Assembly (NCBI GenBank): GCA_003978865.1
Contig: QNXS01000078.1
Coordinates: 1-36,897 of the forward strand
DNA length: 36,897 nucleotides
Source: Archaeoglobus sp.
GTDB lineage: Archaea; Halobacteriota; Archaeoglobi; Archaeoglobales; Archaeoglobaceae
Direction of reading: 5' to 3'
Shown: piece by piece, positions 18,160 through 29,938 of the stretch
Numbering within the stretch: position 1 is the stretch's first letter
Layout: each line of letters begins with the position of its first letter
Program-made: the position numbers and the translations under genes
The notes under the pieces: model-generated
Seen by the model: the letters and a program-made list of their open reading frames with translations, nothing else
Databases searched by the model: none
What the model was told of the DNA's origin: nothing

Positions 18160-18230
18160 GCCAGGGTGGCAGAGGGGCTATGCGGCGGACTGCAGATCCG
18201 CTGACCCCGGTTCAAATCCGGGCCCTGGCT
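18160..18230 (+). tRNA. tRNA-Cys (GCA)
   Basis: Manual cloverleaf: acceptor GCCAGGG/CCCTGGC, anticodon arm GCGGA-CUGCAGA-UCCGC, T arm CCCGG-TTCAAAT-CCGGG, discriminator U. An oligo-T run lies at 18244-18249. Confidence 0.9.
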
Positions 18231-18462: not shown

Positions 18463-18467
18463 GTTTG

Positions 18468-19208
18468 ATGCCAGCAACGCAGATAGTTTTCGTCGGTCAT
18501 CACAAGGAGAGGCTTGTAGAGTCCATCAGAGCACTGAGAGAGTTACCAGCAACCAAAGTTATTCTTGCTATTGGTGAAGAGGAGCTTCCAGGAGAAAGTA
18601 AAGTTAGAAAGATTGCGGAGGAAATAAGGAAAGAGATTGAAACAGTATGGGATGTCGAAACACGAAAAATCAACAAGAGAAACGTGATAAAAGCGGTATC
18701 ACAGCTCATCGAAATAATAAGGAGCGAAAAACAGCAAGGAAGAGAAGTTGTGATCAACGCCTCCGGATCACTGAGAACTCTTGCAATAGCCGGCTACATC
18801 GCCGCATGCGTAACTTCATCGAGAATTTTTACATCCATTCCAAGATACAACGAGAAGGAGGAGGAAGTGGGTATCGAAGAGATTATTGAAGTTCCAACGC
18901 TGCCCGTAGATTTTCCCGGTGAGGAACAGGTGGAGATAATCTCCTCCATAGGCAATGGCGTTGAATCGCTCGACGAGCTTATACTCAGGCTAAATCCGGG
19001 AATAAGCAAGGGAAGTAGCGAGTTCAGAAGGGAGAGGAGCAGATTGAGCCATCATTTGGCGAAGCTTGAAGATGCTGGTCTGGTTAAAAAGGAGAAGCGT
19101 GGAAGAAATGTGGGGATAGTTCTAACTCCTCTCGGCAGATTTTTGCTGGAAGGTGTTGTTTATGGGAAGGAAGTGGATGAAAAGAAGGCTCTTGAAGAAG
19201 TACATTGA
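18468..19208 (+). CDS. Csa3-like regulator: N-terminal CARF-type Rossmann domain + C-terminal winged HTH
   Basis: IVFVGHHKERL..., VVINASGSLRTLAIAG (compare the Csa3/cas_HTH pattern vNlSGGmR), and wHTH RSRLSHHLAKLEDAGLVKKEKRGRNVGIVLTPLG. Confidence 0.6.
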   Translation: MPATQIVFVGHHKERLVESIRALRELPATKVILAIGEEELPGESKVRKIAEEIRKEIETVWDVETRKINKRNVIKAVSQLIEIIRSEKQQGREVVINASGSLRTLAIAGYIAACVTSSRIFTSIPRYNEKEEEVGIEEIIEVPTLPVDFPGEEQVEIISSIGNGVESLDELILRLNPGISKGSSEFRRERSRLSHHLAKLEDAGLVKKEKRGRNVGIVLTPLGRFLLEGVVYGKEVDEKKALEEVH

Positions 19209-19423
19209 GGATGTGCCGAATGTTCCGGGAGTTTACGAGATTCTGATGCCAAACTCGACTATTTACGCGGGAAAGTCACTGGGAGATGGACTCCTTGATC
19301 ACTTCGGAAAGTTCAGAGGTATTTTAGTGTTCGTACTTTAGAGTTCGATTTATGCCACCCAAAGCGGAGAAGGTTGAAAACAAGATAATAAGGAAGAAAA
19401 CCAACAACGAGAGGATGTGGTGA
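19177..19423 (+). pseudogene. small GIY-YIG-type nuclease domain gene, apparently frameshifted
   Basis: Frame 1 reads VPGVYEILMPNSTIYAGKS...LLDHFGKF and then stops at 19341. A second frame continues SYFRVRFMPPKAEKVENKIIRKKTNNERMW*. Together these resemble GIY...YIG...H...E...N. It overlaps both neighbours. Confidence 0.35.
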
Positions 19424-20955
19424 CTGTGAAAATAACAGTTTACGACGGAGCAACAACCATAGGTGGTAACAAAATCTATGTTGAGGAGAACGGTAAGGGA
19501 GTTTTTCTCGATTTCGGCATGAACTTTGCAAAATACAGCAAGTACTTCACCGAATTTCTGAGCGAAAGGAGTGTAAGGGGGATACACGACCTCATTCACC
19601 TCAATCTCATACCGAAGCTCAATATCTACCGATCAGACTTGATACCCTCAGACCTTGACATGTCTTTCTATCCTAAACTCAACGTGGAGGCTGTTCTGTT
19701 AAGCCATGCGCACGTTGACCACTGCGGGAACATAGCTCTGCTTAATAAAAGCATACCCGTCGTGGTATCTCCAATGAGCATGGCGATTCTTAAAGCTATG
19801 AGGGATGTTTCTGCATCGGGAATGGAGATTGCCTACTTCTCTCCAAGAACTTCTGGAAATGATGAAAGAATACTGATTTCTGAGAGGACGAAGCCGTATA
19901 AGGGTAGGGACTTTATATGTACAAACAAAATATCGGACAAGCTTGCTGAATTCATGTGCTATAAACCGGGGCAGGAGAGTAAGAATGCAAAGAAGCTCGT
20001 TCCCGGAAAGATCTGCCATGTAAGTAATCACAGCCTTTCCTTTGACATCGATGCCTACGAAGTGGATCATTCCATCTACGGTGCTACAGCTTACATCCTG
20101 CGGAATGATTTGGCCATAGCATATACAGGCGATATAAGGATGCATGGAAAGCATGCAGAGAGATCGAAGGGGTTCGTGAAGAAAGCAAAGGATGCGTCTG
20201 TTCTGATTGTAGAGGGGACAAGGACAAGCAGAAAGGAAGATGTTGACGAGTCCGAAGAGATTGCCTTTGAAAACTGCTTGAAGGCTGTTGAAGAATCTAA
20301 GGGGCTTGTTATAGCCGATTTCTCGCCGAGAAACTTTGAAAGGCTTGAGACCTTCATCGAGATTGCGAAGAAGACTTCGAGAGAGCTTGTTGTAACAGCA
20401 AAAGATGCGTACATGCTCCACGCCGTGGAGTGTGTTGATGGGATTTGTAGGATGGAGAACGTGGGAATATATCATGAGCTTAGAGATAAGAGGAACAAGT
20501 GGGAAGAACTTGTTGTCAGGAAGAGGTGGGAAGAGAAATATGTTGACCCTTCTGACATTTCGAGAAATCCCGAGAACTACATACTCTGTTTCTCCTTCTA
20601 CGACATGAAGCATTTGCTGGACATCAAGCCAAATGGTGGGTCCTATATCTATTCATCAAGCGAGGCGTTCAGCGAGGAACAGGAGTTCGATTTTCAAAGA
20701 CTGTACAACTGGCTGCAGGAATTTGGGTTGAGAATTTACGGATTTGAGATGGTGCTGGAGGGAGGAAAGTTTGTTCCGAGTTTCATCAGAGGTTATCATG
20801 CATCAGGACATGCGTCGAAGAGCGATTTGAGGTGGATTATTGAGCAAGTTGATCCCGATGTCATCATTCCGGTGCACACTGAGAATCCGGAGTGGTTTGT
20901 GGAGAACTTTGAGAATGTTGTGGTTTTGGGGGATGGAGAGAATTTGGAGGTTTGA
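19417..20955 (+). CDS. RNase J-like metallo-beta-lactamase / beta-CASP nuclease
   Basis: N-terminal ITVYDGATTIGGNKIYVEENGKGVFLDFGMNF, HxHxDH (SHAHVDHCG), VDHSIYGA, AYTGDIRMHG, and C-terminal GYHASGHASKSDL...IIPVHTE. Confidence 0.75.
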   Translation: MVTVKITVYDGATTIGGNKIYVEENGKGVFLDFGMNFAKYSKYFTEFLSERSVRGIHDLIHLNLIPKLNIYRSDLIPSDLDMSFYPKLNVEAVLLSHAHVDHCGNIALLNKSIPVVVSPMSMAILKAMRDVSASGMEIAYFSPRTSGNDERILISERTKPYKGRDFICTNKISDKLAEFMCYKPGQESKNAKKLVPGKICHVSNHSLSFDIDAYEVDHSIYGATAYILRNDLAIAYTGDIRMHGKHAERSKGFVKKAKDASVLIVEGTRTSRKEDVDESEEIAFENCLKAVEESKGLVIADFSPRNFERLETFIEIAKKTSRELVVTAKDAYMLHAVECVDGICRMENVGIYHELRDKRNKWEELVVRKRWEEKYVDPSDISRNPENYILCFSFYDMKHLLDIKPNGGSYIYSSSEAFSEEQEFDFQRLYNWLQEFGLRIYGFEMVLEGGKFVPSFIRGYHASGHASKSDLRWIIEQVDPDVIIPVHTENPEWFVENFENVVVLGDGENLEV

Positions 20956-20957
20956 CT

Positions 20958-21482
20958 ATGCATTTGTGTGAAGGGAGGTCATTTGTAATAGTGGTATCTA
21001 GGATTTTGAGATATGATGGATGTAAATCTGAAAATAAGGGAGATATTACATTATTCGAAGGGATACTCAACAATTTTAAAAAGAATCACGAACTAAAATT
21101 TGAAGACCGTACTGGAGCACTTTTTGAAGTTCAATATTCTATGGTTAGTTCAGATTCCAAGGGATTTCTTTTAATATGTCTAAACCAATACGGAATTCCA
21201 TTCATTTTTGTTGCTCAGGATCTCATGTATCCCTTTTACAGAGTTGAAATTATAGAGGAAGACGTCAGGAAAACAAAGAACCACGTAATAAAACTATTGA
21301 GGGACTCCATACTAAAAGAATTCAAAGATACATGCGAAATTAACAATCTTCAACCTGAGGTTCTTGGATGCTCCTCTTTCACTGGATTTACTTGGATCAA
21401 TTCCAGAAAGGTAGGTCAAACGAGTATACAAATTCATGTTGCAATACTGTATCGGAAAAGCTTTAAGAACAAAGGTGTTTGA
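20958..21482 (+). CDS. hypothetical protein with no motif I recognise (orphan)
   Basis: GGAGGT lies 7 nt before ATG 20958. The start region abuts the beta-CASP stop (TGA 20953-20955). The mcrB-like gene follows 31 nt downstream. Confidence 0.55.
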   Translation: MHLCEGRSFVIVVSRILRYDGCKSENKGDITLFEGILNNFKKNHELKFEDRTGALFEVQYSMVSSDSKGFLLICLNQYGIPFIFVAQDLMYPFYRVEIIEEDVRKTKNHVIKLLRDSILKEFKDTCEINNLQPEVLGCSSFTGFTWINSRKVGQTSIQIHVAILYRKSFKNKGV

Positions 21483-21513
21483 ACATGGTAAAAATGTTTT
21501 GTGAGGAGTAGGT

Positions 21514-23754
21514 ATGGGTGATTTAAAATTAAGTGATGTTTTTAGGAAATTGAAGGAAAAACACGAGGAAGAATGGAAATCAGTAGAAGAAGAATTCATA
21601 GAAAAAGTTGATGAAATAAGAAACTTCGTAATTGAGAAGGTTAAGAGAGGGGCTTTGTTTACTGAAGAGGATGCGGAAAAAATATTAAATTTGTCCAAGA
21701 ATGTGCCTGAAGGATCTAAGTTTCTTCTTAGGTTCATTGGTAGCGTAGGTGGTGACAAGAAGCAAGTAATCGTGAATCTTCTATCTAATGAGTATTTTTC
21801 AAAACTTATTGAAGCATTAGAAAACGAAAAACATGAGGATATTAAAGCTATGGTAGAAAAAATAATCCAATCGACATATAATGTCAAATATACTACCTTA
21901 ACAACCTGGTTGGCCATCTTTAAACCGGATTTATTTATGCCAGTTTGGGGATTTGAAAAAGAGATGGGAACTCTACCTCAAAGTCTTCTGAAAAGGTTTG
22001 ATGAATTAAATAAGTTCAGAAAATGGTGGGATCTTAGAGTTAACAAATTTTTTGATCTGTTACAGATTTTGAGAACGACAGCAAATAGTGTTGGAGTAGA
22101 GAATATGTTTGAAATGGCATTCTATCTCAACAAGTATCTAGAAGATAAATTAAATGATAGTAACACAACAAAGAGATTCTGGCTAATAGCACCAGGAGTG
22201 GGAGCAGAGTACTGGAATACTTGCGTTAATAGAGGTATAATTTGTGTAGGTTGGAGAAAGGCTGTAGAAAAGCTTGGCAAAGAAATATTTGAGATTGAGG
22301 ACGAGGAGTCATTCAAGAAAAGGGTGAGGAATGAATTTAATTATGGCGACTCTCACGAGCTGTGGAAATTTTTAAAGGAGATATCTGAAGGAGACATTGT
22401 CTTTTCAAAAAGGGGAATGAAAGAAATAATAGGAATTGGTATCGTCGAATCTGAACCATCAATAGACCTTGAAATGAAGTATCCAATTTATAGAAAAGTT
22501 AAGTGGTACAAAATTGATCTTAGCCTAGAATCGCCAAAACAGTTTAGTGGGGCAGTTGCTGAACTCAGGAGAGAAGAGATAGAGGAAAATTCTGAATTAA
22601 AGAAATTAATAGATTCAGTGATTTGTGAAATTCAAAAGGATTTGGAAATAAGTCTGATACTCGAATCCAAAAAGCAAATCATCCTCTACGGTCCTCCTGG
22701 CACAGGAAAAACAAGGTTGGCAAGAAATTATATTGAAATAAGAACTAACCGAAATAGAAAATTTTACGAGTTTGTCACTTTTCATCCATCCTACTCTTAT
22801 GAAGAATTCATCGAAGGACTCAGACCAATTCCAGCTGAGAACGGTGTAAAGTACGTGGTCGAAGATGGGATTTTCAAGAGAATGGCAATAAGAGCGATGT
22901 GTGAAGCTATCAGGTGGCAGAACCTAGATTTGAATCTTGCGAAGTCTGCAGAAAAACTGCTCAAATTGCTTAACGAAATAGAGAGCGGAAAAATTGAAAG
23001 GTACGACGAGTACTACGACAAGTACAACGAAGCGAAAAGAGAGTTGTGGCAGTATCTCGAAATGTGCGACAAAGAGAAAGTTAAAAAATTCTTCAAGAAC
23101 GCTCAACCGTTCTACATCCTGATCGACGAGATAAACAGAGGCGACATCTCAAAAATCTTTGGCGAACTTATAACACTACTTGAAGCAGATAAAAGACTCT
23201 TCGCTGAAAACGAGCTGACGGTGATCCTCCCATATTCAAAAACGAAGTTTGGCATCCCACCCAACCTCTACATAATCGGCACTATGAATACAGCGGACAG
23301 GAGCATAGCATTGATTGACATAGCTTTGAGAAGGAGGTTTGGATTCATCGAACTCATGCCAGACTACGACGTTCTCAGAAGAAAGCTGATTAAAGAAGGA
23401 GATGAAGCAAAAGACATTAAAGAACTTGCAATTAAAGTTCTTCACGCCTTAAACGAGAAGATCAGAAAGCTCTACGACAGAGATCACCAGATCGGGCACA
23501 GCTACTTCATCAAACTGGAGGATTGTAAATCAAAAGATGATGCGATTGAAATGCTAAAGCAGATCTGGTTCTACGAGGTTATTCCTCTACTCCAAGAATA
23601 CTTCTACGACAGCCCGGAAAAGCTCAGCGAAATCCTCAAAGACTTTGTCAGTGTATCTGATGACTCGTACGATTTCAAGAAGATTGATGATTTCACGGAT
23701 GAAGAGTTCGAGGATATATTGAGAAAAATAGCCGGTGAGAGCAGTGGTCAGTAA
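21514..23754 (+). CDS. mcrB: McrB-like AAA+ GTPase with a ~390-aa N-terminal extension
   Basis: Walker A LYGPPGTGKT, McrB signature FHPSYSYEEFIEG, Walker B FYILIDEINRGD, GTMNTADRS, LRRRF. GAGGAG SD upstream. The N-terminus is a helical module followed by an EVE/PUA-like segment (RFWLIAPG...GDIVFS...IIGIGIV). Confidence 0.85.
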   Translation: MGDLKLSDVFRKLKEKHEEEWKSVEEEFIEKVDEIRNFVIEKVKRGALFTEEDAEKILNLSKNVPEGSKFLLRFIGSVGGDKKQVIVNLLSNEYFSKLIEALENEKHEDIKAMVEKIIQSTYNVKYTTLTTWLAIFKPDLFMPVWGFEKEMGTLPQSLLKRFDELNKFRKWWDLRVNKFFDLLQILRTTANSVGVENMFEMAFYLNKYLEDKLNDSNTTKRFWLIAPGVGAEYWNTCVNRGIICVGWRKAVEKLGKEIFEIEDEESFKKRVRNEFNYGDSHELWKFLKEISEGDIVFSKRGMKEIIGIGIVESEPSIDLEMKYPIYRKVKWYKIDLSLESPKQFSGAVAELRREEIEENSELKKLIDSVICEIQKDLEISLILESKKQIILYGPPGTGKTRLARNYIEIRTNRNRKFYEFVTFHPSYSYEEFIEGLRPIPAENGVKYVVEDGIFKRMAIRAMCEAIRWQNLDLNLAKSAEKLLKLLNEIESGKIERYDEYYDKYNEAKRELWQYLEMCDKEKVKKFFKNAQPFYILIDEINRGDISKIFGELITLLEADKRLFAENELTVILPYSKTKFGIPPNLYIIGTMNTADRSIALIDIALRRRFGFIELMPDYDVLRRKLIKEGDEAKDIKELAIKVLHALNEKIRKLYDRDHQIGHSYFIKLEDCKSKDDAIEMLKQIWFYEVIPLLQEYFYDSPEKLSEILKDFVSVSDDSYDFKKIDDFTDEEFEDILRKIAGESSGQ

Positions 23755-25075
23755 TATTGCAACACTTTTCGAATACGAGTCAGTGGATTACGAAATTAGG
23801 GATAAGGATGATGCTATATATGAAGATGGCAAAACAATTCTCTCTCTAACTGAAAAGACGATGGAAGAACTCGAAAAGCTCAACGAAACCAGAAAGTTCA
23901 TCGAAATCACTCGCAGAAAATTAAAACCGCTGAACTACGTTGGAGTTGTCAAGACTGGCGGGATAACACTGGAAATTTTTCCCAAATTCGTAACCGACAG
24001 AAGAGGCAATGCAGATCTGTCAAAAAAGGATATAATAGCCAGAAATCTCCTGAAAATGCTTCAGTACACCCACACGGTAAACATCAGGGAAATCGACTAT
24101 GCCAGTATCTTTAAGGAGAGGCACAGCTTTTTCGAGGTGTTCATCAGCATTTTCGCCAAGAACCTTCTTTCACTCCTGAAGTGCAGGCAGAACAGAGAAT
24201 ACATGAGAAAATACGACGAGCTCAGATTTATAAAAGGCAAAATAGACTTCAGGAGATATACAAATCCGGCGAGACTCCACATAATACCATGCACCTACCA
24301 CGAAAGAGCGGCTGACAACATTATCAACAGAACTTTGAAGTACACAGCTTACCTTATGTCCAGAATTGTAGAAGACAGAGAGAACTACAGAACTCTCCGC
24401 AGAATACTTGATTTACTCGATCCCGTAACTCTTATGCCCGTCACACTTCAGCAGGTTAAATCAATAACCTTCAACAGACTCAATGCCGATTTTAAACCCT
24501 TTATAGACATCTGCAGGATATTTCTCGAAGGTTCAACGCTAACGCTGCAGGCTTCCACCGTTGAAACTTTTTCACTGCTAATTCCGATGGAAAGCTTGTT
24601 TGAACAGTTTGTTGCCGGTGTTATCCAGCGTGAAGAACTGCATAGAAAAGTTTTTGATAGTGGTGCGGAGTTAAAAGTACAGGAATCAATAGGCTACCTC
24701 ATAGAAAAGGATGGGAAAAAATTGGCTGAAATGAGGCCGGATATCATCATCAAGGTTGGTGACGAGAAGGTCATCATCGATACTAAGTACAAGCTTCTGG
24801 ATCCGGAAGACAAGAAGTTCGGCGTTTCACAGCAAGATCTCTATCAGATGTACGCTTATTGTAGAGAAATCAACGCCAGAAAGGCTCTGTTGATATATCC
24901 AGAAGGGCTAAACAAAATTAATGAGATTGGCATAAAAACTCCATTCAAAATGGGTAAGAATAGAGATATAGAACTTTTTGTAAGAACTATTTCCTTGGAG
25001 TACGACTTAACTAACGAGGGCTTTGCAAAATTTGTTAACGGCTTAAGAACAATACTTTATGAGCTGAAGGGTTAG
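23735..25075 (+). CDS. mcrC: McrC-like PD-(D/E)xK nuclease subunit
   Basis: Overlaps the mcrB-like stop by 20 nt. C-terminal MRPDIIIKVGDEKVIIDTKYK (D...D-x-K) and QQDLYQMYAY are typical of McrC. Confidence 0.8.
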   Translation: MRAVVSNIATLFEYESVDYEIRDKDDAIYEDGKTILSLTEKTMEELEKLNETRKFIEITRRKLKPLNYVGVVKTGGITLEIFPKFVTDRRGNADLSKKDIIARNLLKMLQYTHTVNIREIDYASIFKERHSFFEVFISIFAKNLLSLLKCRQNREYMRKYDELRFIKGKIDFRRYTNPARLHIIPCTYHERAADNIINRTLKYTAYLMSRIVEDRENYRTLRRILDLLDPVTLMPVTLQQVKSITFNRLNADFKPFIDICRIFLEGSTLTLQASTVETFSLLIPMESLFEQFVAGVIQREELHRKVFDSGAELKVQESIGYLIEKDGKKLAEMRPDIIIKVGDEKVIIDTKYKLLDPEDKKFGVSQQDLYQMYAYCREINARKALLIYPEGLNKINEIGIKTPFKMGKNRDIELFVRTISLEYDLTNEGFAKFVNGLRTILYELKG

Positions 25076-25161: not shown

Positions 25162-25420
25162 ATGACTGACGTAACCATCTCAATCCCGCAAGATTTCGCG
25201 AGAGTTCTCGGAGTGAGGGTGAAAGAACTTCCCAGACTCGTCAAACTTTACCTTGCCTGAACTCTACCGGGAGGGGAAGATTAGCATGGGCAAAGCTGCT
25301 GAAATAGCGGAGATCAGTAAATGGGAAATGATGGAAGTTCTGGCATCGAAGGGCATCTCTCTGCAGTACGATGAAGACAATCTGAGAGAGGGTGTTGAAA
25401 CGCTGGAGAAAGTGTTATGA
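25162..25420 (+). pseudogene. UPF0175-family antitoxin, frameshifted
   Basis: MTDVTISIPQDFARVLGVRVKELPRLVKLYLA* runs in one frame. Another frame reads LPELYREGKISMGKAAEIAEISKWEMMEVLASKGISLQYDEDNLREGVETLEKVL*. The junction is near 25250-25260. Confidence 0.6.
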
Positions 25421-25900
25421 TTGTCGCTTCAAACTCAAACCCCTTGATCATACTGGCAAAAATAGGGAAGCTGGACATTATAAGGGAGCTTTTTGGTCAA
25501 ATAATAATTCCAAGGATGTCTGGGTAGAAGTTATTGAAAAAGGTAGGGGAAGCCTGGAGCGGAGGAAGTTGAAAAAGCCAGTTGGATTAAAGTAGATGAT
25601 GTTAAAGACAAACTGAGTGTCGAAATCTTAAAAGGCGAAGTTGAGGTTGGCGAAGCAGAAGCAATTGTTTCTTGCAAGAGAATTAAATGCTGATCTCCTC
25701 ATTATGGATGAAAGAATTCCGAGAATTATAGCCAAATCTCTTGGCCTGAAAGTTGTGGAAGACTGGCGATTCTGAACATTGCAGAGAAGAAAGGGTTGAT
25801 TGAAGAAGAATTCGATGAGCTCGTAAAAGAACTCAGACTGAAGAGCATCAGATTCAGCAATGATATACTTGAGAAACTCAGGCAGATGTATGGTGAGTAG
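25417..25900 (+). pseudogene. DUF3368 (PIN-like) toxin, multiple frameshifts
   Basis: ATGA overlap with the antitoxin. Pieces lie in different frames: MIVASNSNPLIILAKIGKLDIIRELFGQIIIP / KDVWVEVIEKG / WIKVDDV...VGEAEAIV / NADLLIMDERIPRIIAKSLGLKVV / ...LRQMYGE*. Confidence 0.6.
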
Positions 25901-26050
25901 ATACCGGAAATTGTATATTTTTCAATCCTAAGCTCGATTGAATCTCAAAATTAGTGAAGATAAAAATGGATGGATGGACAGGCAGTTCTGGTTTAAGAAA
26001 GCGTATAATAAAAGCCTTCGGAGACTTGAACGTTTGACGCGTTAATAAAA

Positions 26051-26089
26051 ATTGAACAAAAAATTTAAGTATTTATGATCCAATCAACT
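26051..26089 (+). promoter_or_regulatory. promoter block of the CARF gene; twin of 18424-18462
   Basis: ATTGAACAAAAAATTTAAGTATT-N8-AATCAACT. The TATA centre lies about 26 nt before GTG 26093, so the track start ATG 26075 would sit inside the TATA region. Confidence 0.5.
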
Positions 26090-26092
26090 ACA

Positions 26093-26569
26093 GTGAAAGC
26101 ATACATCACAATCCTCGGCCGCTCTGTATGGGCTCTCATCAACGCGTACTATGCAGTTTTAGCTGAGAAAGCGTACTATCCTGACATAGTTTACATCTTT
26201 GCAGAAGACATCTACGCAGACCAGCTTGGCAGAGCAATAAAAGGCATAGAAATCCTATCAGAGGAATTCGGTTTCAAGCCTGAAATCAGGCAGGAAATTG
26301 TCAGAGAAGCTGATTTCGTTGAAGCTGTGTTAAAAATTACATCCTTAATCAAAGACCTCAAGCAAAATTATAAGATAGCTATAGACATAACGCCCGGCAG
26401 AAAAGCACTTGTTGCTGGGGCTCTAATCCCCATCACAAAAATAGGTGTTGACCACGTTTTCTACTTGGCAATCAAAACGCTCAACAACGTATCAAAGCCA
26501 TACAAAATGATTCCACTTTCAATTCAGGAGCTCAGAGACTTCGTTGAGGATGCCAGAGTTATGAGGTGA
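26093..26569 (+). CDS. stand-alone CARF-type sensor domain protein
   Basis: KAYITILGRSVWALINAYYAV (beta1-helix) and DITPGRKALVAG (the CARF D-x-T/S-x-G-x-K/R loop). It has no effector domain. The track start at 26075 is an alternative. Confidence 0.55.
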   Translation: MKAYITILGRSVWALINAYYAVLAEKAYYPDIVYIFAEDIYADQLGRAIKGIEILSEEFGFKPEIRQEIVREADFVEAVLKITSLIKDLKQNYKIAIDITPGRKALVAGALIPITKIGVDHVFYLAIKTLNNVSKPYKMIPLSIQELRDFVEDARVMR

Positions 26570-27579
26570 TGCCAGTGAGTGAAGTAGTCGTTTCAAGAGA
26601 TGAACTGCAAATACTTCTCAACATGGAGAACGAGATCAGCATAATGTATCCATTCTACAAGCACTTCCAGCTGCTGACGGCAAAGCCGGAAGAAGATGGA
26701 TACAGGTTGAAGGTTTTTGTTGGTGAATATGATTTTGACAGAGAGGTGGAGCGATTTGACCACTTTGCTTTAGAGATGCCCGGTTATGCGGACTTCCTTG
26801 AGTGTCTGGTAGCAGGAATTCTGAAGTATAAAAACGAGAAGGACTTCATAGAGAAACTCAAGCACTACAGAAGTATGACAAAGAGGGTCTACTTCTGCCC
26901 CGACACTAACGTAATCTACCATCGATTCATCTCGAACTCTTCCCTTTTTAAGCAGAACGAGGTTTTGCTCGTCGATACTGTTAAGAAGGAGATCGAGGCT
27001 GCCCTTAACTACAAGTACAATCCTCATCAAATCTCCGAGCTCAAGAACCTTGTAAAATATCAGAAGTTTCTGCTCGACGAGTGGGTGAACAAGCGCATGA
27101 AAAAATCGAGAAAAGCAGCGTACATCGCTTTGAGAGAGTACAGAAAGGTGAGAGATCTGGCTGTGGAGATTGAAAGCATAGAGAAATCAACAAGAGACAG
27201 CGAGTATAACGACAGGATAATCATTAAATCCGTCAGAAGGTTCGAAAAAGAAAGAAATGCACTGCCAGTTTTGCTGACTGCAGACGTATCGATGGTAGAC
27301 ATCTGCGAGCTTGAAGGTGTTGAATACTTTCTATTTGAGTATCCCCATGTTATAAGTGCAGATTACTGCAATGCTGAACAGATGCTCGAGCTCGTTTACT
27401 GTCTTGCTGTTGTTTTCGGCGTCATCAGACTCAATTCGACTGTAGTTTTTGGAGAGTTCAGGGGGAAAAGCAGGCACGAGGAGCTGAAGTTGAGATTTCT
27501 TGATGAGAATATGGTTGAGGAGTTTGAAAGGGATCTGAGAACATGCAGGAAACTGATGGCTCTGGGGATAGAAAAGTAG
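26566..27579 (+). CDS. PIN-domain nuclease with a ~105-aa N-terminal domain of unknown type
   Basis: Acidic PIN positions occur in order: YFCPDTNVI, KKEIEAAL, NDRIII, LLTADVSM. GAGGTGA lies in the CARF stop region, and GTG 26575 is the likely start. Confidence 0.6.
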   Translation: MMPVSEVVVSRDELQILLNMENEISIMYPFYKHFQLLTAKPEEDGYRLKVFVGEYDFDREVERFDHFALEMPGYADFLECLVAGILKYKNEKDFIEKLKHYRSMTKRVYFCPDTNVIYHRFISNSSLFKQNEVLLVDTVKKEIEAALNYKYNPHQISELKNLVKYQKFLLDEWVNKRMKKSRKAAYIALREYRKVRDLAVEIESIEKSTRDSEYNDRIIIKSVRRFEKERNALPVLLTADVSMVDICELEGVEYFLFEYPHVISADYCNAEQMLELVYCLAVVFGVIRLNSTVVFGEFRGKSRHEELKLRFLDENMVEEFERDLRTCRKLMALGIEK

Positions 27580-28250
27580 CCAGAAAGATAAAAGCAGTGG
27601 TATTTGACATGGACAACACCCTATTCGACTTTGTCGAGGCGAAGCTGAAAGCATGTAGGGCTGTTGTTGAATACTTGGGAGTTGGAAGCGAGGAAGAGTT
27701 GCTGAAGTATTTCTTGAGAGGAGTATACGGATTTGAGGATTTAGAGAACATTGCAGACTACATGCGTGATAATGGAGTTTATAATCAGGAGAAGTATGAA
27801 GAATGTTGTAGAATATACGAGGAAGTTAAGCTCGAAAGTATTGAGCCTTACCCTCACGTGAAAGAGACCCTCGAGAAGCTAAGAGGTATGGGCTTGAAAC
27901 TCGCAGTCGTTACGGATGCGCTGAATGGACACGCTTTAAGCAGACTGCGCAAAGCTGGTTTACTGTATCTGTTTGATGTTGTGGTTTCAGCAGACATGAC
28001 GGGCAAGAGGAAGCCAGAGCCTGACTCCATAAAACTGGCTTTGCAGAAGCTTGGGGTTGATGCGAAAGAAGCTATCCTCGTTGGGGATAGCGTAAGACGA
28101 GACATAGAAGCAGGGAAGAAGCTTGGAATGCTTACTGTTTATGCTGCTTATGGTGACAGGAACTTCTTCGAGGATAAGAGCGGGGAGGCGGACTTTACTA
28201 TTGAGGGTATTTGGGAACTGGTTGGGTTATCCAATCAGCATTCTAAATAA
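27543..28250 (+). CDS. HAD-superfamily phosphatase (subfamily IA-like)
   Basis: Motif I VVFDMDNTLFDF, motif II LAVVTDA, motif III KRKPEP, motif IV LVGDSVRRDIEAG. It overlaps the PIN gene end by 37 nt. Confidence 0.8.
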   Translation: MQETDGSGDRKVARKIKAVVFDMDNTLFDFVEAKLKACRAVVEYLGVGSEEELLKYFLRGVYGFEDLENIADYMRDNGVYNQEKYEECCRIYEEVKLESIEPYPHVKETLEKLRGMGLKLAVVTDALNGHALSRLRKAGLLYLFDVVVSADMTGKRKPEPDSIKLALQKLGVDAKEAILVGDSVRRDIEAGKKLGMLTVYAAYGDRNFFEDKSGEADFTIEGIWELVGLSNQHSK

Positions 28251-28892: not shown

Positions 28893-29938
28893 TCACCTTT
28901 TCAGACCTCCTTCTTCCTTATTTTCAAACAATCTATCTAAGGGACTTTTAGTCCTGAGTATATCCTTGTTACTCACATGAGTATAAATTTCTGTTGTTTT
29001 TGAGCTTTTATGCCCTAACAATTCCTGAATGTATCTCAAGTCCACCCCGCTTTCCAGTAAATGCGTTGCAAAGCTATGTCTTAACGAATGAACACTAGCT
29101 TCTTTCCCTATGTTTGCTTTTTCACAGGCTTGCTCAAAAATTGCCTGAACTGTTCTCGTAGTTATGTGCCTTCCCGGCTTAGCTCCTGTGAACAGCCATT
29201 TTTGTGGCTTAAATTTCTGCATATACTTATTTAACATACCTAAAGCCACTTCTGAAAGCATCGTGTATCTATCTTTCCTTCCCTTTCCACCTCTTATTCT
29301 GATCAGCTTTCTTTCCACATCAATATCCTCAACTCTGAGCCTAACAACCTCCCCAACTCGTAATCCAGCAGAATACATGAGCATTAAGATCAGCCTGTGT
29401 TTGATGTTGGTAATCGATGATAAAATCCTTGAAACTCTTCCTGACTCAAAACGACAGGAAGCTTTTTGTCTTTCTTCGGCCTCTTTATTTCATAAACAAA
29501 TTTCCGCTTTAGCACTTCACCGTAGTAAAACTTTAACGCATTGATTGCTATGTTCAGAGTTGAAGCCGAAGCATTCTTCTTTTCCGCTAAATGATACAGA
29601 TAATCTCTCACATCATCATTTGATATCTGATATGGCGTTTTTCTACTGAATCTCAAAAATTCTTCATTGTAATGCAGGTAAAGCTTTACCGTTCTTCTGC
29701 TGTACTTTCTTGCCATCAGTTCTTTCTCAAGTTTGTAAAGCCAGATGGATGTGTCCACCTCAACCTTTTCTCCATCAAATGCTGACAAAAGATTCTTCAA
29801 TTCTGAGTAAGGAATGCTCCAGTATTTCCTATCAGGATGCCATCTGTAGCCTTTAACAGTTTTAATTTTTGCAATGTAGTCTAGATTGTACGGGAATTTG
29901 ACTATAACGACATCTTTGTCTCCCTCAATTCTTATCAT
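28893..29938 (-). pseudogene. tyrosine recombinase/integrase (XerC/D-like), split by a 1-nt frameshift
   Basis: N-terminal SAM-like domain ORF (29390-29938) and catalytic ORF (28893-29384: AGLRVGE, HSLRHSFATHLL, LLGHKSSKTTEIYTHV). The catalytic frame extends upstream as RILSSITNIKHRLILMLMY, and the frames meet at about 29432-29440. Confidence 0.8.

What the first reader, a model, noticed from the sequence alone, without database searches (positions are those of the whole stretch)
26093..28250. Split CARF sensor + PIN nuclease (+ overlapping HAD phosphatase) with no cyclase or cas genes in sight
Seen in the sequence:
- A ~158-aa single-domain protein has CARF hallmarks (KAYITILGRS…, DITPGRKALVAG).
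- Its stop codon overlaps the start region of a 337-aa protein, and GAGGTGA lies within the junction.
- That 337-aa protein has ordered PIN acidic motifs (DTNV, KKEIE, NDRIII, TADVS) behind an unassigned ~105-aa N-terminal domain.
- The HAD phosphatase gene overlaps the PIN gene end by 37 nt.
Established knowledge: CARF domains sense cyclic oligoadenylates from type III CRISPR systems and are usually fused to their effector nuclease.
Inference: here sensor and effector are separate, translationally coupled polypeptides. No Cas10, other cyclase or CRISPR array lies in this 37-kb window. The pair may act in trans with a distant system, respond to another ligand, or behave like a toxin-antitoxin pair. 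A role for the HAD enzyme in signal turnover is pure speculation.
Basis: partly seen in the sequence, partly recalled or inferred. Interest (0 to 1): 0.75.

Follow-up and report, generated by a model that had tools for sequence, protein, structure and literature searches.

The report
Split CARF–PIN RNase operon with phosphatase
This is a typical member of a known but untested archaeal gene family, in which a small nucleotide-sensing CARF protein and a PIN RNase are made as two coupled proteins together with a phosphatase, usually far from any CRISPR locus.

Summary
Three tightly coupled + strand genes encode a stand-alone CARF protein (26075-26569), a 337-aa PIN nuclease (26566-27579) and a HAD-IA phosphatase (27543-28250, 37-nt overlap). 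The window has no cas gene, cyclase or CRISPR array.

The pair is not an oddity. The CARF protein matches the PADLOC profile "CARF_m1--CARF" over its full length (E 4e-63). Both proteins map co-linearly onto the fused "CARF_m1--CARF_PIN" profile. [quoted passage not shown]

- In 80 species-level loci from many archaeal phyla, PIN directly follows CARF in 78 of 79 assessable loci.
- The HAD gene follows PIN in 59 of 69, usually with the same 37-nt overlap.
- Only 5 of the 150 best family representatives are fused.
- AlphaFold models (pLDDT 91 and 93) match cA4-bound CARF structures. Both models also match the CARF-PIN protein SiRe_0806.
- A CARF3-wHTH regulator and a beta-CASP nuclease, both present upstream in this window, recur near the module in other phyla.

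Most likely this is a two-subunit, ligand-gated RNase with an accessory phosphatase. The ligand and its source are unknown. I class it as a new member of a known kind, of moderate interest.

The parts
26075..26569 (+). Stand-alone CARF protein of clade CARF_m1 / Crf6 (164 aa). An alternative start at GTG 26093 gives 158 aa. Predicted ligand sensor, and possibly also a ring nuclease.
   Evidence: PADLOC CARF_m1--CARF, E 3.8e-63, profile positions 2-155 of 156. The AF2 model has pLDDT 90.9 and a Rossmann-like beta-alpha fold. Foldseek matches cOA-bound CARF domains: Cam1, TtCsm6, SiRe_0806 (TM 0.68), Cad1, Csa3, Can2 and Crn1. Motifs TxLGRSxW and DITPGRK are invariant in 40 homologues.
26042..26051 (+). 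AT-rich TATA-like element (TTAATAAAAA), 24-33 nt upstream of ATG 26075. This is a possible archaeal promoter for a leaderless operon transcript. It is inferred only.
   Evidence: Read directly from the sequence. No tool tested archaeal promoters.
26563..26569 (+). SD-like GAGGTGA at the CARF/PIN junction. It contains the CARF stop codon TGA (26567-26569).
   Evidence: Sequence. Candidate PIN starts are GTG 26566, ATG 26569 and GTG 26575. GTG 26575 lies 5 nt after the motif. The junction overlaps by 4 nt in 45 of 80 related loci.
26566..27579 (+). PIN-domain nuclease (337 aa), the predicted effector. It has three regions: an N-terminal alpha/beta adaptor domain (about res 1-105), the PIN core (about res 106-256; D113, E142, D216, D240) and a conserved C-terminal domain (about res 257-337; GEFRGK motif, C327).
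   Evidence: Pfam PIN_4, 27.2 bits against a cut-off of 21.9. PADLOC fused profile CARF_m1--CARF_PIN positions 212-445, E 1.9e-18. All four acidic residues are invariant in 43 homologues. AF2 pLDDT is 92.8. Foldseek top hit is the CARF-PIN protein SiRe_0806 (9jxx/9jxw, E 2e-8), followed by the PIN domains of MJ1533, SMG6 and Rrp44.
27543..27579 (+). 37-nt overlap in which the last 12 PIN codons and the first 12 HAD codons share DNA in different frames. The HAD ATG is formed by the base before the invariant Cys327 codon plus its TG.
   Evidence: Sequence. In most related loci the codon at -37 is ATG and is the only start available before the DxDxT motif. This holds in Archaeoglobi, Methanomicrobiales, Thermoplasmata and Nitrososphaerota.
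27543..28250 (+). HAD-superfamily subfamily IA phosphatase (235 aa), with motif I D22-M-D24-N-T26 and motif IV GDSVRRD. It is a conserved third gene of the operon. Its substrate is unknown.
   Evidence: Pfam HAD_2, E 3.8e-36. All NCBIfam equivalogs score below their cut-offs; the best is TIGR02253, 132 bits against 170. The nearest solved structures are phosphoglycolate-phosphatase-like HADs. It lies directly after PIN in 59 of 69 loci. Pairwise distances co-vary with those of CARF and PIN, r 0.97.
18465..19208 (+). A second CARF protein: a Csa3-like CARF3 clade regulator (CARF-like Rossmann domain plus winged helix). It is a recurrent neighbour of the module and a probable transcriptional regulator.
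   Evidence: PADLOC CARF3--CARF, E 2e-110, full length. Pfam HFX_2341_N plus DUF6293_C. Homologues lie upstream of the CARF_m1 gene in 18 of 81 loci from Archaeoglobi, Methanosuratincola/Thermoproteota, Nitrososphaerota, Methanoregulaceae and Methanomethylovorans.
19417..20955 (+). MBL-fold beta-CASP-type nuclease (512 aa), related to RNase J and aCPSF. In other lineages it sits directly upstream of the CARF gene. Here it is separated from it by an inserted McrBC system.
   Evidence: Pfam Lactamase_B_2, RMMBL and Lactamase_B, all above their cut-offs. NCBIfam RNase J family gives a partial match, E 1e-17. Orthologues abut or overlap the CARF start in 11 of 66 loci and lie within 8 kb in 17 of 66.

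Best explanation
Bases 26075-28250 are one operon. It encodes a two-subunit, ligand-gated ribonuclease of the CARF_m1 / Crf6 family plus an accessory phosphatase.

**Shown**
- Gene 1 is a CARF fold with an intact, invariant ligand-pocket signature.
- Gene 2 is a catalytically intact PIN nuclease with an extra N-terminal and an extra C-terminal domain.
- The two genes are almost always adjacent, in this order, and tightly coupled.
- In a minority of relatives they are fused end to end in the same order.
- Gene 3 is an intact HAD-IA phosphatase, conserved and translationally overlapped with gene 2.

**Inferred**
- A CARF homodimer docks on the N-terminal domain of the PIN protein, giving something like a 2:2 complex that reproduces the fused architecture.
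- The CARF dimer binds a small adenylate-type messenger. The best guess is a cA4-like oligoadenylate.
- Binding switches on the PIN RNase, which then slows growth or clears RNA.
- The conserved Ser17 and Lys110 may let the CARF protein also cleave the messenger, making the response self-limiting. Crf6 is annotated 's,e,r' (sensor, effector, ring nuclease).
- The HAD enzyme dephosphorylates a small phosphorylated nucleotide linked to the signal or to the RNA breakdown products.

**Source of the messenger.** The enzyme that makes the messenger is not encoded here. A type III Cas10 acting in trans is the leading candidate, at roughly 40%. An unknown CRISPR-independent source is nearly as likely, at roughly 35%, and is listed as the first rival.
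For: **CARF identity**
- PADLOC CARF_m1--CARF, E 3.8e-63.
- AF2 pLDDT 90.9.
- Foldseek hits to cA4/cA6-bound CARF domains, including SiRe_0806 at TM 0.68.
- Invariant TxLGRSxW and TPGRK motifs.

**PIN identity and integrity**
- Pfam PIN_4 above its cut-off.
- D113, E142, D216 and D240 are invariant.
- AF2 pLDDT 92.8.
- The top structural hit is the cA4-bound CARF-PIN protein SiRe_0806.

**Evidence that the two proteins interact**
- Both map co-linearly onto the fused PADLOC profile, at positions 2-147 and 212-445.
- Five fused relatives (P0259, P0311, P0316, P0329, P0367) carry the CARF_m1 motifs, followed by the whole PIN protein including its N-terminal domain.
- PIN follows CARF in 78 of 79 loci, mostly with a 4-nt overlap.
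- The pair persists in distant haloarchaeal homologues.

**HAD linkage**
- Adjacent in 59 of 69 loci.
- The ATG at -37 is conserved across phyla.
- Distance matrices of the three proteins correlate at r 0.97.

**Family description**

**Link to cOA**
- Two proteins of the 2014 'archaeal_CARF_PIN' group, PH0177 and a Methanotorris igneus protein, are listed as linked to type III-A. That they belong to CARF_m1 was not tested.
Against: - There is no direct evidence of a complex, of ligand binding or of RNase activity for any family member. No multimer model could be run.
- Another archaeal CARF-PIN protein, ST0035, bound cA4 only weakly, and its RNase was not stimulated (PMC6546367).
- No cas10 or cyclase lies in the window. 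Only one of 91 related loci has a clear CRISPR array within the held flanks of up to 10 kb (L090). One other has a weak 3-copy repeat.
- The module sits in stable, non-defence synteny in Methanoculleus and Thermococcales. It is unusually conserved for a defence gene, at about 50% identity across phyla.
- PIN-like folds can also cut DNA.
- The role of the HAD enzyme is undetermined. It is missing in Thermococci, Helarchaeota and Bathyarchaeota, and it is absent next to the fused forms.
Confidence: 0.55

Rival explanations
1. This is a CRISPR-independent signalling or RNA-surveillance module. The CARF_m1-PIN-HAD triad is the core of a wider conserved archaeal cluster, together with the CARF3-wHTH regulator and the beta-CASP nuclease. 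The cluster senses an endogenous nucleotide or an RNA-end signal, for example RNA fragments or nucleotides ending in a 2',3'-cyclic phosphate, as RtcR's CARF domain does. It then controls RNA turnover. The HAD enzyme, or an ADP-ribosylglycohydrolase in some haloarchaea, makes, removes or processes the signal.
For: - Both CARF clades present here, CARF_m1/Crf6 and CARF3/Crf3, are the ones described as typically not CRISPR-associated.
- Compact five-gene clusters (CARF3-wHTH, beta-CASP, CARF, PIN, HAD) occur in a Nitrososphaerota locus (L031) and, with extra ORFs, in a Thermoproteota locus (L059). The genes also lie near one another in Archaeoglobi and Methanoregulaceae.
- A small-molecule enzyme is a conserved third gene.
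- Synteny is stable in Methanoculleus, and the neighbours in Thermococcales and Methanofollis are housekeeping-like.
- A CRISPR array lies near only one of 91 loci.
Against: - No signal-producing enzyme is identified in the cluster.
- The beta-CASP and CARF3 genes accompany only a minority of loci (17 of 66 and 18 of 81).
- In Archaeoglobi and haloarchaea the module sits in defence islands, next to McrBC, pAgo, type I R-M systems and UvrD/PD-(D/E)xK genes.
- The CARF fold resembles cA4 binders most closely.
Confidence: 0.3
2. This is a toxin-antitoxin-like pair. The small upstream CARF protein constitutively neutralises the PIN toxin. Loss or degradation of the CARF protein, rather than a ligand, frees the nuclease.
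For: - The layout resembles VapBC: a small upstream gene and a downstream PIN gene with a 4-nt overlap.
- In Archaeoglobi the module lies among true TA genes.
Against: - The CARF protein has no DNA-binding antitoxin fold; it is a Rossmann/CARF domain with an invariant ligand pocket.
- The PIN protein is 337 aa with three domains, not a VapC of about 130 aa.
- Fused single-chain relatives exist, which is untypical of TA pairs.
- A third enzyme gene is conserved, the genes are inherited vertically in synteny, and there were no phage hits. Plasmid hits were limited to distant homologues on haloarchaeal megaplasmids.
Confidence: 0.07
3. The CARF protein is only a stand-alone ring nuclease of the Crn1 type that degrades cOA. 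The PIN and HAD genes are independent neighbours with an unrelated RNA or nucleotide housekeeping role.
For: - Its size is close to that of Crn1, and the model matches Sso2081 and Sis0455 structurally.
- A conserved Ser17 in motif I and Lys110 in motif II are present.
- PGAP names the Haloferax alexandrinus homologue 'CRISPR-associated ring nuclease'.
- Crf6 is flagged 'r' (ring nuclease) in the classification.
Against: - Independence is hard to square with adjacency in 78 of 79 loci, with the fused relatives, and with the PIN protein's dedicated N-terminal domain, which is retained in the fusions.
- Ring nuclease activity and sensor function are not exclusive.
Confidence: 0.08

Closest known systems
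Crf6 / CARF_m1 (CARF+PIN) clade of the CARF superfamily (Makarova et al. 2020 census; renamed in the 2025 CRISPR-Cas classification, PMC12669027)
   Same: The CARF protein matches the clade's stand-alone profile over its full length (E 3.8e-63). Both proteins match the clade's fused profile co-linearly. As the clade description predicts, the locus is not CRISPR-associated.
   Different: Nothing essential differs; this is a member. The published one-line description gives 'CARF+PIN'. This analysis adds four points:
- The two-gene form is the rule.
- The PIN protein carries extra N- and C-terminal domains.
- A HAD phosphatase is a conserved, overlapping third gene.
- CARF3-wHTH and beta-CASP genes recur nearby.

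I could not read the 2020 paper, so some of this may already be noted there.
SiRe_0806 of Sulfolobus islandicus (PDB 9jxw apo, 9jxx with cA4), a single-chain CARF-PIN protein
   Same: It is the best structural match for the PIN protein (E 2e-8, 337 aligned columns). It also has the highest TM-score among the CARF matches (TM 0.68, rmsd 3.1 A, 21% identity). It shows that a CARF-PIN architecture binds cA4.
   Different: It is one polypeptide of about 429 aa. Sequence similarity is marginal (profile E 0.08). Its clade was not determined here. No paper on it was found in the library.
Csm6 / Csx1 (CARF-HEPN) and Can1/Can2/Card1 (CARF-PD-(D/E)xK), the type III CRISPR ancillary nucleases
   Same: They share the logic of a dimeric CARF sensor that allosterically switches a non-specific nuclease. 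Their CARF domains are structural matches.
   Different: In those proteins sensor and effector are fused, the effector fold differs (HEPN or PD-(D/E)xK rather than PIN), and the genes usually lie inside type III loci. Here there are two subunits, a PIN effector, no nearby cas genes and a coupled phosphatase.
Crn1 ring nucleases (Sso2081, Sis0455; CARF7)
   Same: They are stand-alone CARF proteins of similar size. The model matches them structurally (E about 1e-4). The motif I Ser and motif II Lys are conserved.
   Different: They belong to a different CARF clade. Crn1 proteins are not obligately paired with a downstream PIN gene. Catalysis was not tested here.
RtcR (CARF-AAA+-HTH), a non-CRISPR CARF regulator of the RNA repair operon
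   Same: It is a precedent for a CARF domain that works outside CRISPR and senses an RNA-derived signal. This statement rests on my own knowledge. It is relevant because this family is also CRISPR-independent and sits next to RNA-type nucleases.
   Different: The architecture and clade are different, and RtcR is bacterial. There is no specific sequence relationship; only a weak PADLOC RtcR hit was seen, on the McrB ATPase.
VapBC type II toxin-antitoxin pairs
   Same: They share the layout of a small upstream gene overlapping a downstream PIN nuclease gene.
   Different: The upstream protein here is a CARF sensor, not a DNA-binding antitoxin. The PIN protein is more than twice the size of VapC. 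Fused forms and a third enzyme gene exist.

Membership tests
CARF superfamily, clade CARF_m1 / Crf6 | Significant full-length match to the clade profile | tested here: met
   PADLOC PDLC01971 CARF_m1--CARF, E 3.8e-63, 210 bits, profile positions 2-155 of 156. Fused profile PDLC01973, E 8.8e-26.
CARF superfamily, clade CARF_m1 / Crf6 | Rossmann-like CARF fold | tested here: met
   AF2 pLDDT 90.9, with alternating beta-alpha units. There are 61 PDB matches at E<=1e-3, and the top 50 listed are all CARF domains: Cam1, Csm6, SiRe_0806, Cad1, Csa3, Can2, Card1 and Crn1.
CARF superfamily, clade CARF_m1 / Crf6 | Motif I (polar residue after beta1) and motif II (D-x-T-x-G-[RK] after beta4) lining the ligand pocket | tested here: met
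   T12-x-L14-G15-R16-S17-x-W19 and D104-I-T106-P-G108-R109-K110. These residues are invariant or at least 90% conserved in 40 homologues.
CARF superfamily, clade CARF_m1 / Crf6 | Curated Pfam or NCBIfam CARF model above threshold | tested here: not met
   Csa3_N scores 21.5 bits against a cut-off of 27. Cas_NE0113 scores 13.2 against 23. TIGR03642 scores 16 against 90. Those libraries appear to lack a model for this clade, so this is a gap in the libraries and not evidence against membership.
CARF superfamily, clade CARF_m1 / Crf6 | Association with a PIN effector, either fused or adjacent | tested here: met
   The PIN gene lies directly downstream in the window and in 78 of 79 species-level loci. 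Co-linear fused relatives exist.
CARF superfamily, clade CARF_m1 / Crf6 | Binding of a cyclic oligoadenylate or other nucleotide ligand; homodimer formation | not testable with these tools
   This needs ITC, DSF or a crystal structure. No multimer prediction was available.
PIN-domain nucleases (Pfam PIN_4) | Profile match above the gathering threshold | tested here: met
   PF13638, 27.2 bits against a cut-off of 21.9, residues 112-252.
PIN-domain nucleases (Pfam PIN_4) | Four conserved acidic metal-binding residues in order | tested here: met
   D113, E142, D216 and D240 are invariant in 43 homologues.
PIN-domain nucleases (Pfam PIN_4) | PIN alpha/beta/alpha fold | tested here: met
   AF2 pLDDT 92.8. 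Foldseek matches the PIN domains of SiRe_0806, MJ1533 (3i8o), SMG6 (2hwx), Rrp44, VapC and FitB.
PIN-domain nucleases (Pfam PIN_4) | Metal-dependent RNase activity | not testable with these tools
   This needs a biochemical assay.
HAD superfamily, subfamily IA phosphatases | Four HAD motifs and a match to the family profile | tested here: met
   HAD_2, E 3.8e-36. Motif I is DMDNT (res 22-26) and motif IV is GDSVRRD.
HAD superfamily, subfamily IA phosphatases | Membership of a substrate-defined equivalog (phosphoglycolate phosphatase, PpaX, nucleotidase or TIGR02253) | tested here: not met
   All NCBIfam hits fall below their curated cut-offs. The best is TIGR02253, 132 bits against 169.75. The substrate is therefore unassigned.
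Type III CRISPR ancillary (cOA) module | Encoded in or next to a cas10-containing locus or a CRISPR array | tested here: not met
   No cas gene or array lies in the 36.9-kb window. An array lies within the held flanks (up to 10 kb) in one of 91 related loci. A Cas6b gene lies 7 kb away in Methanofollis. No cas10 was seen in any neighbourhood annotated with Pfam.
Type III CRISPR ancillary (cOA) module | A cyclase-active Cas10 somewhere in the same genome | not testable with these tools
   Only a 37-kb window and flanks of up to 10 kb are held.
Type II toxin-antitoxin (VapBC-like) | A small antitoxin with a DNA-binding domain plus a single-domain PIN toxin of about 130 aa | tested here: not met
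   The upstream protein is a CARF fold. The PIN protein is 337 aa with three domains.
Crn1-type ring nuclease | A stand-alone CARF protein with a catalytic motif I Ser/Thr and a motif II Lys that cleaves cA4 | tested here: inconclusive
   S17 is invariant and K110 is at least 90% conserved. The model matches Sso2081 structurally. PGAP labels a haloarchaeal homologue a ring nuclease. Cleavage cannot be tested here.

The most novel reading that the evidence does not exclude
The CARF_m1-PIN-HAD operon may be the core of a CRISPR-independent archaeal second-messenger or RNA-surveillance pathway. In many lineages it would work with a CARF3-wHTH regulator and a beta-CASP nuclease. Its ligand would not be Cas10-made cOA. 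The translationally coupled HAD phosphatase, replaced by an ADP-ribosylglycohydrolase in some haloarchaea, would make or destroy the signal. On this reading, CARF signalling has a housekeeping or stress-response life outside antiviral defence.
Probability: 0.3. Interest if true: 0.8.

Novelty: new member of a known kind. Interest (0 to 1): 0.4.

Why it matters
CARF domains are the main receivers of cyclic-oligoadenylate alarm signals in type III CRISPR immunity. Two whole CARF clades, Crf6/CARF_m1 and Crf3/CARF3, are nevertheless described as typically not CRISPR-linked. I found no published experimental characterisation of Crf6 in the library searched. This window carries one protein of each clade.

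The comparison set shows that the Crf6 sensor and its PIN effector are normally separate, co-translated subunits with a dedicated phosphatase. That gives three concrete experimental handles:
- reconstituting the complex,
- screening ligands,
- screening HAD substrates.

These could answer what non-CRISPR CARF domains sense. For annotation, it shows that these 'hypothetical protein' pairs, found in at least 176 archaeal species, can be named. It also shows that Pfam and NCBIfam miss the CARF half.

Tried and rejected
- **Pfam and NCBIfam on the CARF protein.** Only sub-threshold hits appeared. On their own they would have wrongly refuted the CARF call.
- **Sequence searches of the PDB.** Nothing useful came from single sequences. 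The profile search gave spurious TAL-effector repeat hits and only a marginal SiRe_0806 hit.
- **PIN alignment A1 as a locus-search query.** The CARF alignment A2 was used instead.
- **The single 496-aa 'fused' ORF in L047 (Methanosuratincola).** I rejected it as evidence of fusion. It arises from a 1-nt frame change near the end of the CARF gene. Genuine fusions were found later.
- **The suspicion that the -37 HAD start was an ORF-caller artefact** (any A/G/T before the Cys TG). I checked and rejected it. The codon is ATG in nearly all loci that have the -37 start, and it is usually the only start before DxDxT.
- **Integrated-island hypothesis** (tRNA-Cys at 18160-18230, integrase at 28893-29938). 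No att-like direct repeat was found, so this is left open.
- **Literature.**
  - The Makarova 2020 NAR paper is not held.
  - No paper on SiRe_0806 was found.
  - A word search for CARF3/Crf6 returned only unrelated papers.
  - The 2022 CARF/SAVED review does not discuss PIN effectors.
- **Phage collection.** There were no homologues.
- **Genome-wide presence of cas10 or CD-NTase** in the source organism or in the 176 species could not be tested.

Full report
**1. What is in the sequence**

Three + strand ORFs sit back to back.

- **CARF ORF, 26075-26569 (164 aa).**
- **PIN ORF, 26566-27579 (337 aa).**
- **HAD ORF, 27543-28250 (235 aa).**

At the first junction the sequence reads ...ATGAGGTGATGCCAGTGAGT....
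- The CARF stop TGA is at 26567-26569.
- It lies inside GAGGTGA (26563-26569).
- Possible PIN starts are GTG 26566, ATG 26569 and GTG 26575.
- GTG 26575 is 5 nt after the SD-like motif and reproduces the homologue N-terminus MxEVxVxRDELQ.

The HAD ATG lies 37 nt before the PIN stop.

**2. Domain identity**

*Sequence profiles*
- Curated general libraries are weak on the first protein. Csa3_N scores 21.5 bits, below its cut-off of 27, and cas_csx14 gives E 0.011.
- The defence-specific PADLOC library, which carries the Makarova CARF census profiles, is decisive. 'CARF_m1--CARF' matches over its full length at E 3.8e-63.
- The fused profile 'CARF_m1--CARF_PIN' (465 positions) matches protein 1 at positions 2-147 (E 9e-26). 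It matches protein 2, residues 59-305, at positions 212-445 (E 2e-18).
- Protein 2 passes Pfam PIN_4 (27.2 bits against 21.9).
- Protein 3 is a clear HAD-IA hydrolase (HAD_2, E 4e-36), but it reaches no substrate-level NCBIfam cut-off.

*Conserved residues*
- In the 40-sequence CARF alignment, the pocket motifs are invariant: T12, L14, G15, S17, W19, N23 and T106, G108, R109.
- In the 43-sequence PIN alignment, all four PIN acidic residues (D113, E142, D216, D240) are invariant. So are several residues in a C-terminal extension: G285, E297, K301 and C327.

*Structure*
- Both AlphaFold2 models are confident, at pLDDT 92.8 and 90.9.
- The CARF model matches cOA-bound CARF domains: Cam1, TtCsm6, Cad1, Csa3, Can2, Card1 and Crn1. 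The best TM-score (0.68) is to SiRe_0806 of Sulfolobus islandicus.
- The PIN protein's best hit is the same SiRe_0806, a CARF-PIN protein crystallised with cA4 (9jxx, E 2e-8). After it come a PIN-containing archaeal RuvB-like helicase (5f4h, 5yww), then the PIN domains of MJ1533, SMG6 and Rrp44.

The two gene products therefore correspond to the two halves of a solved single-chain protein.

**3. How common is the arrangement?**

Both proteins have many homologues as separate proteins of about 160 aa and about 335 aa. They occur in Archaeoglobi, Thermococci, Methanomicrobiales, MSBL1, Asgard archaea and Methanomethylicia.

A scan of one genome per GTDB species with the CARF alignment found 176 species. 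I analysed 80 of these loci, with up to 10 kb held on each side, using my own ORF calls and HMMs.
- PIN lies directly downstream, on the same strand, in 78 of the 79 loci that have at least 300 bp after the CARF gene.
- The overlap is 4 nt in 45 loci.
- The two loci with a gap of about 650 bp, and one truncated contig, carry a VapBC pair inserted between the two genes.

An exhaustive profile search of 1.84 billion representative proteins found 326 family representatives.
- Only 5 of the best 150 are fused (485-531 aa).
- In those five, the CARF_m1 motifs precede the complete PIN protein, including its N-terminal domain.

The split form is therefore the norm. The fusions are 'Rosetta stone' evidence that the two proteins work as one unit. 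One apparent fusion, in L047, is a 1-nt frameshift and was discounted.

**4. The HAD gene belongs to the operon**

- A dedicated HAD orthologue (313-375 bits on the operon HMM, apart from a divergent Methanospirillum copy at 231 bits, against 43-127 bits for other or fragmentary HAD hits) follows PIN in 59 of the 69 loci with room for it.
- This holds across Archaeoglobi, Methanomicrobiales, Methanosuratincola/Thermoproteota, Thermoplasmata and Nitrososphaerota.
- In most of these loci the start is an ATG exactly 37 nt before the PIN stop, and it is the only start codon ahead of the DxDxT motif.
- That ATG is built from the base preceding the invariant Cys327 codon plus its TG. The PIN C-terminus and the HAD N-terminus (MQ...) are thus co-encoded.
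- Other lineages use overlaps of 4 or 17 nt.
- Pairwise distances of CARF, PIN and HAD across 58 loci correlate at r about 0.97. The three genes travel together, although any vertically inherited genes would also correlate.
- HAD is absent downstream in Thermococci, where DUF2284 sits upstream instead. In Palaeococcus the HAD gene lies two genes further upstream.
- HAD is also absent in a Helarchaeota locus, a Bathyarchaeota locus and a Methanomethylovorans locus, and next to the two fused forms I examined.
- Distant haloarchaeal pairs on megaplasmids lack HAD. An ADP-ribosylglycohydrolase gene lies nearby in 3 of 5.

**5. Wider context**

*In the window*
- The flanks are housekeeping genes: Pus10, adenylate kinase and DUF1464 on one side, and LeuA on the other.
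- An island runs from tRNA-Cys (18160-18230) to a frameshifted integrase (28893-29938, - strand).
- Its first gene (18465-19208) is a full-length CARF3-clade, Csa3-like CARF-wHTH protein (PADLOC E 2e-110; Pfam HFX_2341_N plus DUF6293_C).
- The next gene (19417-20955) is an MBL/beta-CASP nuclease related to RNase J.
- After these come an unknown 176-aa ORF, McrB, McrC and a decayed UPF0175/PIN-like toxin-antitoxin pair. The CARF-PIN-HAD operon follows.

*In other species*
- The beta-CASP gene abuts or overlaps the CARF start in 11 of 66 loci and lies within 8 kb in 17 of 66.
- The CARF3-wHTH gene is present in 18 of 81 loci.
- A compact cluster of CARF3-wHTH, beta-CASP, CARF, PIN and HAD occurs in a Nitrososphaerota locus (L031). 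The same order, with small intervening ORFs, occurs in a Thermoproteota locus (L059).
- The closest relative, L012, has only about 1 kb between the beta-CASP and CARF genes. McrBC therefore looks like an insertion in the window's lineage.
- In Methanoculleus the module sits in stable synteny with non-defence genes.
- In Archaeoglobi it lies among McrBC, pAgo and type I R-M genes.

*CRISPR linkage*
- The window has no CRISPR array.
- Of the 91 related loci, only one has a clear array within the held flanks.
- No cas10 appeared in any Pfam-annotated neighbourhood.

**6. What is already known**

[quoted passage not shown] It excludes Crf3 (CARF3) for the same reason (PMC12669027 supplement).
- The 2014 CARF census already listed Memar_1533 and Metli_1440 as 'only_CARF', with no toxin and no CRISPR link.
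- The same census listed a fused 'archaeal_CARF_PIN' group. This included PH0177 and a Methanotorris igneus protein, both marked as linked to type III-A (PMC4012209 supplement).
- ST0035, another archaeal CARF-PIN protein, bound cA4 weakly without RNase stimulation (PMC6546367).
- I found no experimental paper on this clade. I could not read the 2020 census.

**7. Interpretation**

The best-supported mechanism is a two-subunit, ligand-gated PIN RNase.
- A CARF dimer docks on the PIN protein's N-terminal domain, reproducing the fused architecture.
- It binds an adenylate-type messenger and activates the nuclease.
- It may also cleave the messenger.
- The co-translated HAD-IA enzyme acts on a small phosphorylated nucleotide connected with the signal or with its products.

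The domain identities, the intact catalytic and pocket residues, the gene coupling, the fusions and the conservation are shown. Complex formation, the ligand, activation and the HAD role are inferred.

The origin of the ligand is unresolved. Cas10 acting in trans is plausible for three reasons:
- the fold resembles cA4 binders,
- SiRe_0806 binds cA4,
- two proteins of the 2014 'archaeal_CARF_PIN' group (PH0177 and a Methanotorris protein), whose membership of this clade I did not test, are listed as type III-A-linked.

A CRISPR-independent role is nearly as likely, for four reasons:
- linkage to CRISPR is systematically absent,
- the module co-occurs with the other non-CRISPR CARF clade,
- synteny is stable and sequence conservation is high,
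- a small-molecule enzyme partner is conserved.

The toxin-antitoxin reading and the 'ring nuclease only' reading are weak.

**8. Verdict**

This is a new member of a known kind.

Its value lies in the family-wide picture. The sensor and effector are obligately separate, a phosphatase is conserved and overlapped, and CARF3-wHTH and beta-CASP genes recur as partners. Together these make the open question of what non-CRISPR CARF domains sense experimentally approachable. Interest 0.4.

Noticed in passing
window 18465-19208 (+): A second CARF protein lies in the window. It is a full-length CARF3-clade, Csa3-like CARF plus winged-helix regulator (PADLOC E 2e-110; Pfam HFX_2341_N plus DUF6293_C). 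Homologues recur upstream of the CARF_m1 gene in 18 of 81 loci.
   Followed up: partly
window 19417-20955 (+): A 512-aa MBL/beta-CASP nuclease related to RNase J and aCPSF. In other phyla its orthologue abuts or overlaps the CARF_m1 gene start (11 of 66 loci).
   Followed up: partly
window 20952-25075 (+): An unknown 176-aa ORF (20952-21482), McrB (21514-23754) and McrC (23735-25075) lie between the beta-CASP and CARF genes. The closest relative, L012, has only about 1 kb there. In L001-L004 and L013 the McrC stop overlaps the CARF start. McrBC therefore looks like an insertion into an older cluster.
   Followed up: partly
window 25253-25900 (+): An intact UPF0175 antitoxin ORF (25253-25420) is followed by a PIN-like (DUF3368-type) toxin gene. 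The toxin gene is broken across all three frames by several frameshifts, so this is a decayed toxin-antitoxin pair. The DUF3368 assignment is by eye from the translation, not from a profile search.
   Followed up: partly
window 28893-29938 (-) and 18160-18230 (+): A tyrosine recombinase is split into two out-of-frame ORFs: the SAM-like N-domain (29390-29938) and the catalytic domain (28893-29384). It sits at the right end of the island. tRNA-Cys sits at the left end. No att-like direct repeat was found.
   Followed up: partly
L021 10518-11133; L023 1123-1738; L024 10473-11163: In three Geoglobus/Archaeoglobus genomes, a complete VapBC pair has been inserted between the CARF and PIN genes without disrupting either. 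It consists of an AbrB/MazE-like antitoxin and a VapC of about 138 aa.
   Followed up: yes
L047 1587-3077: An apparent single 496-aa CARF-PIN ORF in a Methanosuratincola MAG results from a 1-nt frame change near the CARF C-terminus. It may be an assembly error or a very recent fusion. It shows how easily the 4-nt-overlap junction fuses.
   Followed up: yes
L095-L099 (haloarchaeal megaplasmids): Distant CARF-PIN pairs lack HAD and sit among defence-like genes (UvrD plus PD-(D/E)xK, methyltransferase plus helicase). An ADP-ribosylglycohydrolase gene lies nearby in 3 of 5, and HEAT-repeat proteins in 2. A giant HEAT-repeat protein also lies upstream of the module in most Methanoculleus loci.
   Followed up: no
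L006, L010, L043, L044, L057 (Thermococcales): DUF2284, a predicted metal-binding protein of about 155 aa, sits directly upstream of the CARF gene wherever HAD is missing downstream. It also occurs a few kb upstream in Methanosuratincola loci and in L059.
   Followed up: no
L061: A contig assigned to a Spirochaetota MAG carries the archaeal beta-CASP, CARF, PIN and HAD cluster. The arrangement and scores are the same as in the Methanoregulaceae locus L045. This is probably a binning contaminant and not a bacterial occurrence.
   Followed up: no
L001-L004 11715-16301: In the closest relatives, the operon is followed by a UvrD/AAA_11-type helicase, a split archaeal Argonaute (PAZ plus Piwi ORFs) and a type I restriction system. 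Upstream lies a Metallophos plus AAA_23 (SbcCD-like) pair, next to the CARF3 and beta-CASP genes.
   Followed up: no
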